5,549 bases of DNA from Candidatus Hydrogenedens sp. Its GTDB lineage: Bacteria > Hydrogenedentota > Hydrogenedentia > Hydrogenedentales > Hydrogenedentaceae. Positions 1-5,549 of this stretch are shown here, one piece after another. Both the position numbers and the translations under genes were made by a program. Under the pieces are notes generated by a model. It made no database searches. It had not been told where the DNA came from and worked only from the letters and a program-made list of their open reading frames with translations. The DNA is taken from the NCBI GenBank assembly GCA_049968235.1, contig JBMFRC010000042.1, positions 1 to 5,549 of the forward strand, in the 5' to 3' direction. The first letter of the stretch is position 1. Each line of letters opens with the position of its first letter.

Positions 1-396
<396 letters not shown>

Positions 397-500: not shown

Positions 501-617
<117 letters not shown>

Positions 618-632
618 TTTTTATTTAAACTG

Positions 633-688
633 TGATGAGATGAAAAATCCATACCTTTTACCAGATTATCATCTCATTTTGTTTTTTT
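633..688 (+). terminator. Putative rrn operon terminator (hairpin + T-run)
   Basis: Inverted repeat 'gatgagatga' (634-643) / 'tcatctcatt' (669-678): 9 Watson-Crick pairs plus a G-U. It is immediately followed by 'ttgttttttt' (679-688). The loop is unusually long (~25 nt), so confidence is moderate. Confidence 0.4.
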
Positions 689-838
689 AGTGCAGGTCTA
701 AATTATTATAAATATAAAATAAGGCTACGATTTGTTTTATACTTATATTATATGAGATGTAAATAATTGTAAATTCTACAATTTATTTTCTCCTTCCACT
801 ACTTATAATTGCTTTATACTCCTCCAAAATTTTGTTTC

Positions 839-867
839 TTGATGCATAATTCATATAGAATTATAAA
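839..867 (+). promoter_or_regulatory. Possible sigma70-type promoter for the isomerase gene: TTGATG, 17-nt spacer, TATAAA
   Basis: 'ttgatg' at 839-844, a 17-nt spacer, then 'tataaa' at 862-867, ~25 nt upstream of the ATG at 891. The SD-like 'aaggga' lies ~9 nt before the ATG. The region is very AT-rich, so chance matches are likely. Confidence 0.25.
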
Positions 868-890
868 AACATAACATAAGGGAAATATCT

Positions 891-2396
891 ATGAATACAT
901 CAAATCAAGAATCAAAAAAGTTTTCGTCCTGTTTCTCAGGTTGTTCACGCAGGCAATTCATTCTGGCTTCGGCAGGTATGGTGGCAGTGGCTAATCTGCC
1001 GATTTATGGGAAATCTATTGTTGAGCAGGGACCCTTGGCTGAGTTACAGATTAAGAGTAAGGTTAGGGTAGGAAAAATGTATGTCGGTATTCCCAGCCCC
1101 GGTTGGCCTATGCATCTGGTTGACCTGAAAGCGGAAGTAAACCGATATGAACAGGAAATATCGAAACTCAAAGAACAACTTGCTGATATTGAATTTGTGG
1201 AAGGTGGGCTGGTTACAAATCAAGATGAACTTGCAAAAGCAAAAGAAAAGTTTGGGGATGTGACGGGGATATTGGTTCTGCATCTGACTTTAGGCACAGG
1301 CGGGCTGATTTCAGGGTTGTTTGACATGAACAAGCCTGTGATGATTTTTACCATGCCGTATTGTGGGCATGAATGGCATATTGTTCCATCGTGGCAGAGG
1401 GAAGGAAAAATTGTGGATATAGTTCCAAGCAGTCAATATGCAGATATTGCTGAAGCGGTGAAACCGTTCCGTGCTATTCAAAGACTAAAAGAGACACGAA
1501 TACTCCATGTAAACTATGGTGAAGCAGACCCGCAATATTGTGCTTCTATTAAGGAGAAATTTGGAACTGAAATCATTACAGTAACACTTCCGGAACTTGA
1601 AAAGGCTTACGAGGAAGCATCCGAAGAAGAGGTGCTTGCTGATACAGAAAGATGGATTAAAGAAGCGGAGAAAATTGTTGAGCCCGGTAATGAAGATATA
1701 AAAAAAGGGGCGAGAATGTATATTGCTATGAAGAATCTTATGAAGAATTACAAGGCACAAGCCATTACAATGAATTGTTTAGGTATGAAATTAATGGAAA
1801 GGAATATGGGCTATCCGTGTTTAGGCTTTGTTCGATTAAATAATTCCTTGCTTGCAGGTGTGTGTGAGGCAGACCTGAAATCTACAATGACACAACTACT
1901 ATTTACCTATCTCGTGGGACGCACAGGTTTTGTTACTGACCCGATGTTTGACCTTTCAAATAATACAATCATACATGCCCATTGTGTCGCAGCGACACAG
2001 ATGAAAGGTCCGAATACCGAGCCTTCCCCTTACATAGTGAGAACTCATTTAGAGGACAATAGAGGCGTTTCACTGCAAGTGAAGATGCCTGTCGGCGAAA
2101 AAGTAACTATGGCACGACTAATAGGTAGCGATATATTGCTGTATAGCACCGGTGATGCCATCGATAGTCCACTTGAAGAGCGTGGCTGTAGAAGTAAATT
2201 AACGGTAAAAGTGGATAATATAGATAATTTCCTATATAACTGGTCATGTGGACTACATCGTGTAATCTTTTATGGTGACCACACAAGGGATATAGAACGC
2301 TATTGCAGGTTAACAAGAATTAAAATCCTCCGCGAAGGGATTGATAATCTCCATCATGTCGAAGGACTTGAATGGAACCCCAATGTCCATGCATAG
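891..2396 (+). CDS. L-arabinose/L-fucose isomerase family (AraA/FucI superfamily) sugar isomerase with N-terminal twin-arginine (Tat) signal peptide
   Basis: 501-aa ORF with ATG at 891 and TAG at 2394-2396. The N-terminus 'SCFSGCSRRQFILASAGMVAVANLPIYG' is a canonical Tat motif (S-R-R-x-F-[IL]) followed by a hydrophobic h-region. The core 'GVCEADLKSTMTQLLFTYLVGRTGFVTDPMFD' resembles the AraA metal-site motif 'GEGDWKTAALLRIM...TSFMEDYTY', and 'TIIHAHCVAATQM' resembles the AraA His-containing strand. Antisense ORFs inside it are AT-rich junk. Confidence 0.8.
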   Translation: MNTSNQESKKFSSCFSGCSRRQFILASAGMVAVANLPIYGKSIVEQGPLAELQIKSKVRVGKMYVGIPSPGWPMHLVDLKAEVNRYEQEISKLKEQLADIEFVEGGLVTNQDELAKAKEKFGDVTGILVLHLTLGTGGLISGLFDMNKPVMIFTMPYCGHEWHIVPSWQREGKIVDIVPSSQYADIAEAVKPFRAIQRLKETRILHVNYGEADPQYCASIKEKFGTEIITVTLPELEKAYEEASEEEVLADTERWIKEAEKIVEPGNEDIKKGARMYIAMKNLMKNYKAQAITMNCLGMKLMERNMGYPCLGFVRLNNSLLAGVCEADLKSTMTQLLFTYLVGRTGFVTDPMFDLSNNTIIHAHCVAATQMKGPNTEPSPYIVRTHLEDNRGVSLQVKMPVGEKVTMARLIGSDILLYSTGDAIDSPLEERGCRSKLTVKVDNIDNFLYNWSCGLHRVIFYGDHTRDIERYCRLTRIKILREGIDNLHHVEGLEWNPNVHA

Positions 2397-2624
2397 ATTA
2401 TTGAAAAGAAACAAAGGATGAAATTATATTTTCCTGTTGTATTTTATTGCAAAAAAAAATTGAACAACAAAACCCTGCATAACAAAGTTAAATAATTTAA
2501 CAGCAATTCTTTATTTGCACATTCTTTAAATTTATGAAGTTATATACTGCCAAAATATATCACAATTTAATTGTTAACATAAATTTATTTTGAGAGTTCT
2601 TTTTGTTTTGTCGTCATTTTTGAA

Positions 2625-3398
2625 TCAATCGTTTTTTTTAATAGTCTCTGCCAATTCTATTTCATCAAATAAGGTTTTCCAGCCTATTACAGGTACGCCA
2701 TCTTTTATTTCTGGCGGAGAATGGTGCTTAAGTATTACGAGTATAGGGATGGACATTCTTCCTAATATTTCAGATTGAGCCTTAATTTTATTGATTTTAT
2801 TGGTTATAGTAAAACTACGTTTAGATACTTTGCAAGCTATTACTAAATAGCTTTGTTCAAAAACACAGGCTATATCTATTTCACTTTTAAATGCATGGCC
2901 TTGATATTCTTCATTTATGTTTCTCTGATTCTCTTCTGACCATTTTGTTTTTATCCCTAATCGAATTTGCTTACAACCTATTTTCTCAAATGCAAATGCG
3001 GTTAATTCTTCAAAAAAGTGTCCATCACTCCTCTTAGCCTCTAATATGTGGTCAATATCATTATCTATTTCTTCTGCAGTTAATATTTTATTCTTCAATA
3101 CTTTATCTTTTAAGTTTTTGAATTTGGTAATGAAATTTTGGTAGAGACTTTTTTTGTCATTATTCAATGTTTTCCCTATATTTTTGATATCATCTTTCAT
3201 TTGTAATACTATTACTAAAGGAGGTTCCTTTAATGGTATTTTTTCAGAACCATCTAATAAATCAATGGTATTAGTACTATTATTAATAGAATATATCTTT
3301 CCATGTTGTTTTATTCCCCAAAAACTTAGTACTCCAGCATGAGATTTTGGTCCGGGTGTTATATTTATGATTGCTTCTCCATTCCCAAACATCTTCAT
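2625..3398 (-). CDS. Hypothetical protein; C-terminal half resembles an Mrr-type PD-(D/E)xK restriction-endonuclease fold (possible nuclease effector)
   Basis: 257-aa ORF, 77 nt downstream of the CARF gene on the same strand. Segment 'FEELTAFAFEKIGCKQIRLG...QGHAFKSEIDIACVFEQSYLVIACKVSKRSFTITNK...ILGRMSIPILVIL' matches the Mrr_cat layout: a helix with FE..l....L...GY, a Gly + hhhD strand (EIDIA), then hh.xCK (IACK). Motif III has Ala where Q/E is usual. The N-terminal ~110 aa (K-rich linker) is of unknown function. Weak RBS. Confidence 0.6.
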   Translation of the reverse strand: MKMFGNGEAIINITPGPKSHAGVLSFWGIKQHGKIYSINNSTNTIDLLDGSEKIPLKEPPLVIVLQMKDDIKNIGKTLNNDKKSLYQNFITKFKNLKDKVLKNKILTAEEIDNDIDHILEAKRSDGHFFEELTAFAFEKIGCKQIRLGIKTKWSEENQRNINEEYQGHAFKSEIDIACVFEQSYLVIACKVSKRSFTITNKINKIKAQSEILGRMSIPILVILKHHSPPEIKDGVPVIGWKTLFDEIELAETIKKND

Positions 3399-3475
3399 AT
3401 TATATAAATTAAATCCTGTAATATCTGTTGGTAATGATTGTAAGCCTCTTACTTGATTCGGTAAATTAATTTTAC

Positions 3476-3976
3476 CTATTTAATTTTTTCGATAACTTTA
3501 TTCACCCGTGAATCATCATAAGTATAAATTATACAAAGATTTGAATAGTTGTGAGTATACATCACCTTCAAGGTGTTTATTAATTCAGGACTCATTACAA
3601 CATATAAAGTAGAACCTTCTTTAGGTTCTTTTATTATTTCTGGTGAATTTATTTTTTTTGATAAATCAACAGAAAATGTAGATTTATTATTTGTTTTCTC
3701 TAAATAATTTCCAAATTCATTGAGATTACTAAATATTTTAACATCTCCTATTGCCTCTGATTGAAATCTTTCCTTAGTCCTAGTATCTTTAGTCTTAGGA
3801 TATTTTTTAATGATAATAGTTTCATAACTATGAAGTTCTTTTAACTGTTTACGATCCTTTCCACAAAATGCGATAATTTTACGAACTTTGTCTAATTCGT
3901 ATGAATCTATACTTATTATAAGTTTTAAGAAATTATTTTTAGAGATAATAAAATCGAATACAATATTTTCAAGCAT
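3476..3976 (-). CDS. C-terminal fragment (166 aa from first ATG) of the frameshifted CARF-domain protein; C-terminal domain of unknown function
   Basis: ORF from ATG 3976 to the stop at 3476. The same frame stays open upstream to 4192 with protein-like sequence and no canonical start, so the true gene is longer. Contains 'DRKQLKELH' (R-x6-H), a weak HEPN-like hint only. Confidence 0.45.
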   Translation of the reverse strand: MLENIVFDFIISKNNFLKLIISIDSYELDKVRKIIAFCGKDRKQLKELHSYETIIIKKYPKTKDTRTKERFQSEAIGDVKIFSNLNEFGNYLEKTNNKSTFSVDLSKKINSPEIIKEPKEGSTLYVVMSPELINTLKVMYTHNYSNLCIIYTYDDSRVNKVIEKIK

Positions 3977-4295
3977 TATCGCCGTAGATGATTGTTTTCC
4001 TGCTTCCCGTGGTATTTTTAATGATTTAAAATTCCCTTCTCTTTGTTTACATTTATATTCAACTCCCTGGATAGCTAAAATATCTAAAGGTTCTAACTCA
4101 ATACAAGGATTTAATTCTTTATATTCACCATTATTTAAGTTAAGAGACCATATAGATTCCCTTTCTGAATATATGAAGTTTAAATGGGGGGATTAAATGT
4201 TTTTAAGTATTGAAAGACAAAACTGGCAACCTGATGGTTCATCCCTCCAGCCAGATTGAAATATATCTCCTCATCTTTATCAACAGGGATGTCTT

Positions 4296-4508
4296 TTATA
4301 TTAAAAATTGGAGCGACAATTTGTTTTGAATTTCTAATTTTGGATTCTGTTTTAACAACTGAGAAGAGATTTTATCTGTTTGTTCAGCAGTTATTTCTGT
4401 ATGTAAAAGTAAAAATTTGCATCGCGATTTTTCTAAATTTAATACAGATAGAGCAGAGTTTAGTGTTCCCATAACCTGTGTACCTACAAAAGAAATAAAT
4501 TGAGCCAT
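4296..4508 (-). CDS. N-terminal fragment (70 aa) of the frameshifted CARF-domain protein, as an ORF caller would report it
   Basis: ATG at 4508 preceded by 'aggagattaaaa'. Encodes CARF beta1-alpha1-beta2 ('FISFVGTQ...CKFLLLHTEITAEQ'). Terminates at TAA 4296-4298 only because of the upstream frameshift. Confidence 0.5.
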   Translation of the reverse strand: MAQFISFVGTQVMGTLNSALSVLNLEKSRCKFLLLHTEITAEQTDKISSQLLKQNPKLEIQNKLSLQFLI

Positions 4509-4514
4509 TTTTAA

Positions 4515-4520
4515 TCTCCT
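4515..4520 (-). promoter_or_regulatory. Shine-Dalgarno sequence (AGGAGA) of the CARF gene
   Basis: + strand 'tctcct' is 'aggaga' on the - strand, 7 nt upstream of the ATG at 4508. Confidence 0.6.
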
Positions 4521-4563
4521 ATATTCAATTTAATTAACTTTTAATTTATTTTATCTCTATTAT

Positions 4564-4605
4564 GTTATTAAATCAAAAAAATAGCCCTCTGTGCGGGGAA
4601 AATCC
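4564..4605 (-). terminator. Rho-independent terminator of the PASTA-domain gene
   Basis: Perfect 11-bp inverted repeat 'atagccctctg' (4571-4581) / 'cagagggctat' (4595-4605) with a 13-nt loop. On the - strand the stem is followed by a T7 run (A-run 4564-4570 on +). It lies 54 nt downstream of the stop at 4659. Confidence 0.65.
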
Positions 4606-4658
4606 AGAGGGCTATGTATGTTGTGACAGAAAGTTTTCTCCCTGATGGGACTGAATGT

Positions 4659-5549
4659 TTAATTGTGCGTGTGTTTGCGTTTCCGTGTTTGAACGAGGAG
4701 TAGTCCGGAAAGGATAGTTAGCATTACCCAATCGCCTGTGTTGGAGTTATCCGATGAACTATGGGTTCCACAAGAAACGATAAATCTGCGTTTCTTACCC
4801 TTGCTAACAATTAAATCCACAGGGGTATCCTTTGCAACTCGCGCACCTGCTTCTGGCGCCTGACTAATTACACTTCCTTTTGGAACAGTGTCACTATATT
4901 CTTGTTTAATCGTTCCTACAGTAAGTCCGGAAGCAATTATTTTTGTTCTTGCATCCTGTTCTGTCATCCCAACCACATTGGGTACTGAGATAGGGCATGG
5001 ACCTGTAGAAACTACGAGATTTACTGATGTTCTTTTATTAACTGTTTGTGCTGGTAATGGACTCTGACTAATAACATTTCCTTCAGGAACGGTATCACTA
5101 CATTGTCTTGTTATGCTTCCCACAACCAGTCCTATGGATGTTATTTGTTCGATTGCTGATGTCTCGGAACTACCAATTAGATATGGAACTGTAACCTTTT
5201 CGACTTCACCTTCCACGATACCTTCCGGAGTACCCTCTGGTGTCCCTTCGGGAGTTCCTTCCACGACGCCTTCCGGAGTACCGTCGGGCGTACCTTCCGG
5301 GGTCCCTTCCACGACGCCTTCCGGAGTTCCCTCTGGCGTTCCTTCGGGCGTTCCTTCAACCACACCTTCCGGTGTACCTTCTGGCGTGCCTTCTGGAGTA
5401 CCTTCGACTACACCTTCGGGGGTGCCTTCCGGCGTCCCTTCTGGCGTTCCTTCACCTTCTACAACTCCTTCTCCTTCTGGAGTGCCTTCGCCTTCAGGAC
5501 ATGGTCCTGTGGATACCCAAAGATTCACTAATGTTCCTACCTCTACAGT
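4659..5549 (-). CDS. PASTA-domain repeat protein (N-terminus outside the window; PknB-like Ser/Thr kinase or PBP-associated sensor not decidable), with a PEGT-rich repetitive linker and a C-terminal hydrophobic/basic tail
   Basis: The reading frame is open to the window edge. The listed GTG at 5526-5528 is not the real start: upstream codons continue '...TVEVGTL'. Two full PASTA units: 'VPYLIGSSETSAIEQITSIGLVVGSITRQCSDTVPEGNVISQSPLPAQTVNKRTSVNLVVSTGPCP' and 'VPNVVGMTEQDARTKIIASGLTVGTIKQEYSDTVPKGSVISQAPEAGARVAKDTPVDLIVSKG'. These match the PASTA consensus (vP.vvG.t..eA...l...Gl.v......s..v..G.Vi.Q.P.aG..v..g..V.L.vS.G). A third unit ends '...NLWVSTGPCP' at the window edge. The C-terminus is '...SSSDNSNTGDWVMLTILSGLLLVQTRKRKHTHN'. 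Confidence 0.85.
   Translation of the reverse strand, partial: TVEVGTLVNLWVSTGPCPEGEGTPEGEGVVEGEGTPEGTPEGTPEGVVEGTPEGTPEGTPEGVVEGTPEGTPEGTPEGVVEGTPEGTPDGTPEGVVEGTPEGTPEGTPEGIVEGEVEKVTVPYLIGSSETSAIEQITSIGLVVGSITRQCSDTVPEGNVISQSPLPAQTVNKRTSVNLVVSTGPCPISVPNVVGMTEQDARTKIIASGLTVGTIKQEYSDTVPKGSVISQAPEAGARVAKDTPVDLIVSKGKKRRFIVSCGTHSSSDNSNTGDWVMLTILSGLLLVQTRKRKHTHN
5190..5507 (-). repeat. Imperfect 48-nt tandem repeat (~5-6 copies) inside the PASTA gene, encoding (TPEG)3-VVEG linker units
   Basis: Protein 'EGTPEGTPEGTPEGVVEG' is reiterated. On the + strand the recurring unit is 'ccttccggagtaccctctggtgtcccttcgggagttccttccacgacg' with synonymous third-position variation between copies. The RK-rich ORF 5177..5365 is an alternative-frame artefact of this repeat. 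Confidence 0.8.

What the first reader, a model, noticed from the sequence alone, without database searches (positions are those of the whole stretch)
5190..5507. 48-nt coding tandem repeat ((TPEG)3VVEG)n forming an acidic Pro-rich spacer between PASTA domains
PASTA units are normally joined by short linkers. Here at least 5 to 6 copies of a 16-aa Pro/Glu/Gly/Thr unit separate two PASTA domains. The DNA copies differ at synonymous positions, so the array is maintained by selection rather than a recent slippage burst. It is nevertheless a natural substrate for copy-number variation that would change the reach or spacing of the extracytoplasmic PASTA sensors.
Basis: seen in the sequence. Interest (0 to 1): 0.5.

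Follow-up and report, generated by a model that had tools for sequence, protein, structure and literature searches.

The report
Acidic repeat stalk in surface protein
The repeat is real and encodes a floppy, strongly negatively charged (Thr-Pro-Glu-Gly)n tether inside a giant membrane-anchored surface protein of an uncultured Hydrogenedens-like bacterium; relatives carry the same tether three to five times longer, so it is an ordinary variable-length stalk, and its copy number here cannot be trusted from a short-read assembly.

Summary
On the minus strand, window 5495-5208 encodes a 96-aa linker: one degenerate unit plus five 48-nt units, (TPEG)3[V/I]VEG. Of 94 pairwise base differences, 90 are at third codon positions and only 2 residues change.

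It lies in the C-terminal 296 aa of a gene that runs off the window. The layout is PASTA end, linker, two PASTA domains, then a conserved KKRRFIVSCG motif, a membrane helix and a basic tail.

Syntenic orthologues in Candidatus Hydrogenedens (68-79% identity) are about 1,750-1,900 aa. They have a signal peptide, a GLUG/M26_N-like head and four PASTA domains, with no kinase or transpeptidase. At the same junctions they carry the same xxEG linker at 300-500 aa.

Only the tetrapeptide is conserved. The higher-order period is 48, 42/84 or 36/120 nt, depending on lineage. Two near-identical contigs differ by 180 aa in the array, always in multiples of 12 nt.

Seven related contigs, and a same-population contig, end inside the array. 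The count of 5-6 copies is therefore unreliable.

Best reading: a disordered polyanionic stalk of fast-evolving length, not a spacer between PASTA "sensors". Such stalks are a known kind. This sequence family appears undescribed.

The parts
5496..5549 (-). Last 18 codons (TVEVGTLVNLWVSTGPCP) of an upstream PASTA domain. The gene runs off the window here.
   Evidence: Translation. The same '...VS[ST]GPCP|EGEG' junction follows complete PASTA domains in orthologues and paralogues. It matches the orthologous position at 11-12 of 18 residues, but paralogues P0004, P0007 and P0015 at 14 of 18.
5448..5495 (-). Degenerate first linker unit, EGEGTPEGEGVVEGEG.
   Evidence: It resembles the TPEGEGVVEG-type units of the L002/L026 lineage.
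5208..5447 (-). Five full 48-nt units encoding (TPEG)3[V/I]VEG. This is the core of the finding.
   Evidence: TRF period 48, score 287. Codon table. 90 of 94 differences are at third codon positions. Shuffle tests. AF2 pLDDT 46-57 with no secondary structure.
5196..5207 (-). Conserved junction EVEK between the linker and the next PASTA domain.
   Evidence: E[VI]E[KN]V[TI]VPY is conserved in all orthologues.
4992..5195 (-). PASTA domain (fragment residues 119-186), with a Cys pair (RQCSD ... GPCP).
   Evidence: Pfam PF03793. PDB matches to the Stk1 and PknB ectodomains, 3py9 at 1.5e-22. AF2 pLDDT 98.
4797..4991 (-). Second, membrane-proximal PASTA domain (residues 187-251).
   Evidence: Pfam best stretch 188-250. 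AF2 pLDDT 98.
4662..4796 (-). C-terminal tail: KKRRFIVSCG motif, a Ser/Asn-rich 12-mer, a hydrophobic helix (WVMLTILSGLLLV) and a basic end (QTRKRKHTHN). The stop codon is at 4659-4661.
   Evidence: Conserved in all orthologues and in P0013, P0017, P0029, P0035 and L029, always directly after a PASTA domain. AF2 helix at 272-293. No NCBIfam sorting-signal model matches.

Best explanation
The array encodes an intrinsically disordered, proline-stiffened, polyanionic stalk. It has 26 acidic and 0 basic residues in 96, about one negative charge per tetrapeptide. It sits inside the orthologue of a roughly 1,800-aa secreted protein of a Candidatus Hydrogenedens-like bacterium.

Shown:
- The protein is exported by an N-terminal signal peptide, seen in the orthologues.
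- It ends in a hydrophobic helix plus a basic tail.
- Two PASTA domains lie next to that C-terminal anchor.
- The linker joins them to a third PASTA domain and, in the orthologues, to a roughly 1,300-aa GLUG/M26_N-like head.

Inferred:
- The linker acts as a tether. It sets how far the head can reach from the membrane, keeps the modules apart by charge repulsion, and resists collapse through its Pro and Gly content.
- Polymer scaling suggests roughly 8-10 nm average reach and about 35 nm contour length for 96 aa. For 300-500 aa the figures would be about 17-23 nm and 110-190 nm. These are estimates, not measurements.

Selection keeps the tetrapeptide xxEG (mostly TPEG, punctuated by VVEG). Array length and higher-order period turn over quickly through in-frame gain and loss of 12-nt multiples. 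The same linker type is a standard connector in this lineage, joining PASTA, cohesin, dockerin/EF-hand-like and GLUG modules. The copy number in this window (5-6) is a lower-confidence figure from a short-read assembly.
For: - Composition and frame: (G26 E25 T16 P16 V11 D1 I1).
- Purifying selection with saturated synonymous sites.
- AF2 with a 39-sequence alignment: PASTA domains pLDDT 98, linker 46-57 with no secondary structure, C-terminal helix 272-293.
- Orthology by synteny: the 501-aa neighbour is 87-89% identical and adjacent in L001, L016, L017, L019 and L021. The three small ORFs are shared with L018, L020 and L022.
- Full-length orthologues are 1,754-1,896 aa, with a signal-peptide-like N-terminus, four PASTA domains, Peptidase_M26_N/GLUG hits, and no kinase or transpeptidase.
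- The linker sits at identical junctions (GPCP|EGEG ... VEG|EVEKVTVPY) with 300-500 aa in the orthologues.
- L018 and L020 have flanks 99.9-100% identical but arrays of 1500 and 960 nt, and every gap is a multiple of 12 nt.
- The period is 48, 42/84 or 36/120 nt depending on lineage. An irregular period argues against a regular folded solenoid.
- 35 of 83 database hits carry at least 5 consecutive xx[ED]G units, next to varied domains.
Against: - No experiment or structure exists for any member. Disorder is inferred from composition and a low-confidence AF2 region.
- The strict conservation of the order T-P-E-G goes beyond what a pure spacer needs. It hints at an additional role, such as a modification site, metal binding or a semi-rigid PPII conformation.
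- The envelope type of Hydrogenedentota is unknown to me. In a diderm cell, a helix anchored in the inner membrane would leave the whole protein in the periplasm, unless the tail is a sorting signal.
- The window shows only 18 residues upstream of the linker, and these resemble a paralogue slightly better than the orthologue. The junction could therefore be chimeric.
Confidence: 0.7

Rival explanations
1. The array is real, but the copy number, and possibly the junction to the upstream PASTA end, is an assembly artefact. On this view a longer array of 300-500 aa, as in the orthologues, was collapsed by a short-read assembler, or two paralogous genes were joined through their shared xxEG linkers.
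For: - The window starts in the rRNA operon (23S/5S) and ends 54 nt past the array. Both are typical contig breakpoints.
- A same-population contig (L041, 99.9% identical over window 645-5286) ends inside the array. It carries 3 of its 5 mismatches in the last 79 nt, and those change the last copy towards the sequence of copies 3 and 4.
- 7 of 17 related contigs end inside the array.
- All complete orthologue arrays are 3-5 times longer.
- The upstream 18 aa match paralogues P0004, P0007 and P0015 at 14 of 18 residues, against 11-12 of 18 for the orthologous position.
- Only the mutually divergent copies are present here, which is what collapse of the near-identical copies would leave behind.
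Against: - The window sequence is in frame throughout, with the conserved start (GPCP|EGEG) and end (VEG|EVEK) junctions.
- Paralogous PASTA-linker-PASTA proteins have genuine linkers of 20-164 aa, so 96 aa is plausible.
- 14 versus 12 matches out of 18 is not statistically decisive.
- No reads are available.
Confidence: 0.45
2. The TPEG units are functional sites rather than passive spacer. They could be Thr O-glycosylation sites, giving a mucin-like stalk, or a polyglutamate-like Ca2+/metal-binding array. Selection would then act on the motif itself.
For: - Near-perfect conservation of the order T-P-E-G across orthologues whose flanks are only 68-79% identical, with synonymous sites saturated.
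- The same linker co-occurs with EF-hand/dockerin-like Ca2+-binding modules and cohesin in the same lineage.
- From general knowledge: Thr/Pro-rich linkers of cellulases and scaffoldins are often O-glycosylated.
Against: - No glycosyltransferase or other modifying enzyme was identified next to the gene (one search lists only ORF positions, and these were not annotated).
- Many substitutions are tolerated at positions 1 and 2 (AP, IP, TL, TH, TT, VV, GV). This suggests that composition matters more than an exact site.
- There is no direct evidence.
Confidence: 0.2
3. The repeat forms a regular fold in which VV faces a core once per 16-residue turn. Candidates are a beta-solenoid or a polyproline-II bundle.
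For: - A strict 16-aa superperiod in the window.
- A hydrophobic VV pair recurs at a fixed spacing.
Against: - The superperiod is not conserved. Rows of 12, 16 and 20 aa are mixed within single orthologue arrays, and other lineages use a 14-aa period.
- AF2 gives pLDDT 46-57 and no secondary structure, while the adjacent PASTA domains reach 98.
- One charge per four residues with no counter-charge disfavours compaction.
- PDB matches are only low-complexity tetrapeptide repeats: OCM3 xPSG and circumsporozoite protein NANP.
Confidence: 0.05
4. The array is a contingency locus. Rapid length change would serve population-level variation of a surface antigen or receptor, for example against phage or grazers.
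For: - L018 and L020 have identical flanks but arrays of 500 and 320 aa.
- Variants are enriched in the array between same-population contigs: 3 in 79 nt against 2 in about 4,560 nt.
- Lineage-specific unit variants (THEG, TTEG/GVEG, EG-insert) imply ongoing turnover.
Against: - All changes are in frame, in multiples of 12 nt, so there is no on/off switching.
- The copies are too divergent for high-rate slippage in this window (longest exact word 23 nt).
- The differences between short-read assemblies may themselves be artefacts.
Confidence: 0.2

Closest known systems
Ser-Asp (SD) repeat region of staphylococcal Clf/Sdr surface adhesins
   Same: Both are low-complexity acidic coding repeats in C-terminally anchored surface proteins. 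Both lie between the anchor-proximal part and the distal functional domain. In both, copy number varies between strains (PMC3324548 abstract). A wall-spanning stalk role is established for ClfA (own knowledge).
   Different: The unit here is a tetrapeptide, TPEG/VVEG, not the dipeptide SD. The anchor is a hydrophobic helix preceded by an FIVSCG motif, not LPXTG/sortase. The organism is an uncultured Hydrogenedentota bacterium. SD repeats are glycosylated, and nothing is known on that point here.
Pro/Thr-rich linkers of cellulosomal scaffoldins and glycoside hydrolases
   Same: Both are Pro/Thr-rich, extended, disordered connectors between independently folded modules. The same lineage also uses this linker next to cohesin and dockerin modules (P0013 and P0017).
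   Different: The linker here is strongly acidic, with Glu in every tetrapeptide, and Gly-rich. It is far longer in the orthologues (300-500 aa). It connects PASTA domains.
PASTA-domain ectodomains of Ser/Thr kinases (PknB, Stk1/PrkC, StkP) and class B PBPs
   Same: The flanking domains are bona fide PASTA domains (Pfam 1.6e-31). The best PDB matches are 3py9 and 3m9g (chains named 'Protein kinase'; the Stk1 family name comes from the NCBIfam hit) and 2kui, PknB.
   Different: There is no kinase or transpeptidase domain in full-length orthologues. The membrane anchor is C-terminal, not N-terminal, to the PASTA domains. A 96-500-aa repeat separates PASTA units that in PknB are joined by short linkers (own knowledge).
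Fungal adhesin Ser/Thr-rich tandem-repeat stalks (e.g. Candida glabrata Epa1)
   Same: Both are tandem-repeat regions between a ligand-binding head and a C-terminal anchor, and in Epa1 the repeat copy number changes display (PMC7199969 abstract).
   Different: Epa1 is eukaryotic, GPI-anchored and heavily glycosylated, with an unrelated sequence.
Tetrapeptide xPxG/NANP-type repeats in solved entries (OCM3 in 9ufe; Plasmodium circumsporozoite protein)
   Same: Both have a period-4 repeat containing Pro and Gly (or Asn). The matches are weak and low-complexity (E=1.9e-7 and 8e-6).
   Different: There is no shared ancestry or context. These are compositional matches only.

Membership tests
PASTA domain (PF03793) flanking the repeat | Sequence match to the PASTA profile above the curated cut-off | tested here: met
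   108.5 bits against a cut-off of 23.2, in two stretches. Four stretches in full-length orthologues. PDB PASTA ectodomain 3py9 at 1.5e-22. AF2 shows an alpha+beta unit at pLDDT 98.
PASTA Ser/Thr kinase (PknB/Stk1 family, NF033483) | N-terminal cytoplasmic kinase domain, then a TM helix, then C-terminal extracellular PASTA repeats | tested here: not met
   NF033483 scores 112 bits against a cut-off of 450, and only over the PASTA part. Orthologues L019 and L026 have no Pkinase hit, and they have a signal peptide plus a C-terminal anchor instead.
Class B penicillin-binding protein with PASTA (PBP2x/SpoVD type) | Transpeptidase domain N-terminal to the PASTA domains | tested here: not met
   No transpeptidase hit in the full-length orthologues. 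The spoVD_pbp model scores 22 bits against a cut-off of 688.
Variable-length low-complexity stalk of anchored surface proteins (SD-repeat-like class) | Low-complexity coding tandem repeat lying between the anchor-proximal region and the distal head of a secreted, anchored protein | tested here: met
   Architecture in orthologues: signal peptide, head, PASTA, linker, two PASTA domains, TM tail.
Variable-length low-complexity stalk of anchored surface proteins (SD-repeat-like class) | Repeat number differs between close relatives, in frame | tested here: met
   Lengths of 96, 300, 320, 350, 388, 424 and 500 aa. L018 and L020 have identical flanks and gaps only in multiples of 12 nt. Caveat: all are short-read assemblies.
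Variable-length low-complexity stalk of anchored surface proteins (SD-repeat-like class) | Extended or disordered conformation that projects the head away from the cell | not testable with these tools
   Only indirect evidence: composition, AF2 pLDDT 46-57 with no secondary structure, and an irregular superperiod.
Known C-terminal sorting signals (LPXTG, PEP-CTERM, GlyGly-CTERM, MYXO-CTERM and others in NCBIfam) | Match to a curated sorting-domain model | tested here: not met
   No such model matches at E<=1 for the window fragment, P0013 or P0017. The tail has the tripartite look (motif, hydrophobic helix, basic residues), but no family assignment can be made.
M26 IgA1-specific metalloendopeptidase (ZmpA/B/C type) | Peptidase_M26_C catalytic domain in addition to the N-terminal/GLUG region | tested here: not met
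   Only Peptidase_M26_N (27.1 bits, just under the 27.7 cut-off) and Glug hits in the orthologues. No catalytic domain is reported.

The most novel reading that the evidence does not exclude
The xxEG linker could be one standard part of an undescribed, lineage-specific cell-surface assembly system in Hydrogenedentota. Anchor proteins would carry cohesin, linker, PASTA and a conserved 'KRRFIVSCG, spacer, TM, basic' tail. That tail would be a new C-terminal sorting or lipidation signal. Partner proteins would carry PASTA, linker and paired EF-hand/dockerin-like modules (HSADxxGDxxISLxELLRVIQFFN). Giant GLUG-head proteins such as this one would use the same tail. The strictly conserved TPEG unit would be a modification site (for example O-glycosylation), giving a mucin-like stalk of tunable length.
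Probability: 0.2. Interest if true: 0.6.

Novelty: new member of a known kind. Interest (0 to 1): 0.3.

Why it matters
For the biology: an uncultured phylum known from anaerobic bioreactors appears to build very large surface proteins from PASTA, GLUG, cohesin and dockerin-like modules. These modules are strung on one stereotyped acidic tetrapeptide tether, and the tether length changes faster than anything else in the gene. Here PASTA is used as a structural, membrane-proximal module outside kinases and PBPs.

For genome scanning: this is a cautionary case. The array is a systematic contig breakpoint, and its copy number in short-read MAGs should not be interpreted.

It does not open a long-standing question. 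Variable low-complexity stalks in surface proteins are well known.

Tried and rejected
- Single-sequence AlphaFold2 of the fragment was uninformative. Mean pLDDT was 35 and even the PASTA domains did not fold. It was replaced by a run with a 39-sequence alignment.
- NCBIfam hits to FliH, the serine-rich protein and internalin K over the linker all fall far below their cut-offs. They are compositional and were rejected.
- PDB hits of the linker to OCM3, circumsporozoite protein and eL29 are low-complexity matches and not homology.
- Literature searches found nothing describing this linker or architecture. The terms were Hydrogenedentes + PASTA; Hydrogenedens + surface protein/repeat; TPEG + tandem repeat/linker; PASTA domain + GLUG; and OCM3.
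- I looked for active selection for codon scrambling. The number of identical codons (68) matches the expectation from independent draws (66; permutation 60 +/- 4, p=0.055). The data show saturation, not over-dispersion.
- I tried to recover the full gene from the same organism through exact look-ups of neighbouring proteins. Only two short contigs were found. One ends inside the array and the other ends before the gene.
- ORFs on other frames or the opposite strand inside the array (for example window 5177-5365, and L021 8635-10326) were dismissed as stop-free artefacts of the repeat.

Full report
**1. What is in the window**

The window begins with the 3' end of a bacterial 23S rRNA (1-396) and a 5S rRNA (501-617). 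A 501-aa ORF follows (891-2396, + strand). It has a TAT-like signal and weak sugar-isomerase similarity.

Next comes an AT-rich stretch (about 2400-4658, 25-31% GC) with three small minus-strand ORFs.

The gene that holds the finding is on the minus strand, from 4659 to beyond 5549. It runs off the window, so only its C-terminal 296 residues are visible.

**2. The observation**

Tandem Repeats Finder reports period 48, 5.1 copies, 82% matches, no indels and score 287 at 5209-5453, with nested 12-, 24- and 96-nt periods.

In frame, the protein reads as follows:

| Window coordinates (minus strand) | Sequence or feature |
|---|---|
| 5549-5496 | ...TVEVGTLVNLWVSTGPCP |
| 5495-5448 | EGEGTPEGEGVVEGEG |
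| 5447-5208 | five units of (TPEG)3[V/I]VEG |
| 5207-5196 | EVEK |
| 5195-4992 | PASTA domain |
| 4991-4797 | PASTA domain |
| 4796-4662 | KKRRFIVSCG, a 12-residue Ser/Asn-rich spacer, a hydrophobic helix, and QTRKRKHTHN |

- Lag-48 identity is 0.754. Base shuffles give 0.289 +/- 0.028. Shuffles that keep the 12-nt units give 0.611 +/- 0.034, and 0 of 5000 reach the observed value. The 48-nt order is therefore real and sits on top of a 12-nt (tetrapeptide) repeat.
- The 96-aa linker is G26 E25 T16 P16 V11 D1 I1. It has 26 acidic and no basic residues.
- Among the five full copies, 90 of 94 pairwise differences are at third codon positions, and only two conservative residue changes occur. Identical codons at homologous positions number 68 of 152, against 66 expected if codons were drawn independently.
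- Fifteen TPEG units are written with 14 different 12-mers. The longest exactly repeated word is 23 nt.

**3. What the gene is**

Database relatives are mostly annotated as PASTA domain-containing proteins of Candidatus Hydrogenedentes/Hydrogenedens MAGs.

Scans of genome and metagenome contigs with the non-repeat C-terminal 184 aa found orthologues at 68-79% identity. One is Ca. Hydrogenedens terephthalaticus (L001).

Orthology is supported by synteny. The 501-aa gene (87-89% identical) lies next to the big gene in L001, L016, L017, L019 and L021. The three small ORFs are shared with L018, L020 and L022.

Reading the open frames upstream shows proteins of 1,754-1,896 aa with these parts:
- a signal-peptide-like N-terminus;
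- about 1,300 aa of GLUG/Peptidase_M26_N-like repeats with interspersed PASTA-like units;
- a PASTA domain ending ...VSSGPCP;
- the xxEG array;
- EVEKVTVPY and two PASTA domains;
- the same tail.

Pfam finds four PASTA domains plus Peptidase_M26_N/Glug in these orthologues, and no kinase or transpeptidase. The protein is therefore not a PknB-type sensor or a PBP. NF033483 scores 112 bits against a cut-off of 450.

**4. The linker in relatives**

Linker lengths at identical junctions:

| Locus | Linker length (aa) |
|---|---|
| Window | 96 |
| L002 | 300 |
| L020 | 320 |
| L026 | 350 |
| L017 | 388 |
| L001, L019, L021 | 424 |
| L018 | 500 |

- None of these linkers has a basic residue.
- L018 and L020 have flanks 99.9-100% identical over 3 kb and 1.9 kb. 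Their arrays are 1500 and 960 nt, and all gaps are multiples of 12 nt.
- The dominant higher-order period is 48 nt in the window and in L018-L021, 36/120 nt in L017, and 42/84 nt (TPEGTPEGEGVVEG) in L002, L022 and L026.
- Lineage-specific unit variants (THEG; TTEG/GVEG; APEG; DGEG) and exact DNA repeats of 54-98 nt show ongoing duplication and turnover in the orthologues.
- The same linker type occurs in 35 of 83 database hits. There it sits next to PASTA, cohesin/dockerin, EF-hand/dockerin-like, GLUG, FGE-sulfatase and other modules.

It is a lineage-wide connector. The conserved element is the tetrapeptide, not the 16-mer.

**5. Structure**

AlphaFold2 on the single sequence failed (pLDDT 35).

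With a 39-sequence alignment, the two PASTA domains reach pLDDT 98. The linker stays at 46-57 with no secondary structure. A C-terminal helix is predicted at residues 272-293.

PDB sequence matches are PASTA ectodomains (3py9 and 3m9g, chains named 'Protein kinase'; 2kui and 5e10, PknB) for the folded part. For the linker there are only low-complexity tetrapeptide repeats.

The irregular superperiod within and between orthologue arrays argues against a regular solenoid.

**6. Mechanism**

Steps that are shown:
- the gene product is exported;
- it ends in a hydrophobic helix plus a basic tail;
- the linker lies between a membrane-proximal PASTA pair and the rest of the protein;
- the peptide is under purifying selection;
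- array length varies in frame.

Steps that are inferred:
- the linker is a disordered, charge-expanded, proline-stiffened stalk that sets the reach and separation of the distal head;
- selection on reach, or drift, changes its length.

My confidence in this reading is about 0.7.

The very strict T-P-E-G order leaves room for an added role, such as O-glycosylation, metal binding or PPII rigidity.

**7. Reliability of the copy number**

- The window is bounded by an rRNA operon at one end and ends 54 nt beyond the array at the other.
- An independent contig from the same population (L041, GCA_049969095.1) matches window 645-5286 with 5 mismatches and stops inside the array. Three of the five mismatches fall in its last 79 nt, and they convert the last copy towards the sequence of copies 3 and 4.
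- Seven of 17 related contigs also end inside the array.
- The 18 upstream residues match paralogues (P0004, P0007, P0015) at 14 of 18. The orthologous position matches at 11-12 of 18.

Collapse or chimerism therefore cannot be excluded. I put it at about 0.45. Only long reads or PCR can settle it.

**8. Comparison with known systems, and novelty**

Functionally, the array is closest to the SD-repeat stalks of staphylococcal adhesins, the Pro/Thr linkers of cellulosomal proteins, and fungal adhesin repeat stalks (abstracts; the rest is own knowledge).

It is not a member of the PASTA-kinase, PBP or M26-protease families. Their defining domains were tested and not found.

No paper describing the TPEG linker or this architecture was found.

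I class it as a new member of a known kind, with moderate-to-low interest (0.3). The more interesting leads are peripheral:
- the uncurated FIVSCG C-terminal tail, shared with cohesin-bearing proteins;
- the hint of a modular surface-assembly system in this phylum.

Noticed in passing
window 4662-4796 (-); also L001-L005, L016-L027, L029, P0013, P0017, P0029, P0035: A conserved C-terminal tail, 'KG[AK]KRRFI[VI]SCG, 10-12 Ser/Asn-rich residues, D, ~14 hydrophobic residues, basic end', always directly after a PASTA domain. It is shared by the giant GLUG-head protein and by small cohesin(+dockerin)-linker-PASTA proteins. No NCBIfam sorting-signal model matches. It may be an uncurated sorting or lipidation signal.
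   Followed up: partly
window ~2400-4658: An AT-rich (25-31% GC) islet of three ORFs lies between the surface-protein gene and the 501-aa gene. It is present in L018, L020 and L022 but absent in L001, L016, L017, L019 and L021, where the two genes are adjacent. ORF 2625-3398 (-) matches only the PD-(D/E)xK nuclease part of the PADLOC CARF_PDDEXK/Csx1 models (1.4e-8, residues 115-228). The other two ORFs have no hits.
   Followed up: partly
window 1-396 and 501-617 (+): The 3' end of the 23S rRNA and a complete 5S rRNA. The contig starts inside an rRNA operon. Together with the end just beyond the repeat, this looks like a whole short-read contig bounded by two assembly breakpoints.
   Followed up: yes
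window 891-2396 (+): A 501-aa protein with a TAT-like signal (SRRQFILASAG) and weak similarity to sulfoquinovose and L-arabinose isomerases, far below the cut-offs. It is conserved at 87-89% next to the surface-protein gene in Hydrogenedens contigs.
   Followed up: no
L021 3272-4795 (= P0006), immediately upstream of the giant gene; also P0009, P0010, P0031: The neighbouring gene encodes three PASTA domains, an xxEG linker, and two copies of an EF-hand/dockerin-like module 'HSADxxGDxxISLxELLRVIQFFN...GY'. Taken with the cohesin-bearing proteins that carry the tail (P0013, P0017), this suggests a cohesin-dockerin-like surface assembly.
   Followed up: partly
window 4992-5195 vs 4797-4991 (-), and orthologues: The Cys residues in the PASTA units come in pairs or not at all. 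'..QCSD..' and '..GPCP' occur together, whereas the last PASTA domain has '..QEYSD..' and '..SKG'. This pattern suggests an intradomain disulfide and an extracytoplasmic location. It was not tested structurally.
   Followed up: no
window 5208-5495 vs rest of gene: The third-position GC of the repeat (0.45) is much higher than in the rest of the gene (0.27). For example, ACG/ACT and CCG are used in the repeat, against ACA and CCA elsewhere. The sample is small and the cause is unknown.
   Followed up: no
P0048 C-terminus: A related GLUG-PASTA-linker protein ends in 'GCGCFGG..., hydrophobic stretch, RRKK'. This is a MYXO-CTERM-like tail and differs from the FIVSCG tail. No NCBIfam match was reported.
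   Followed up: no
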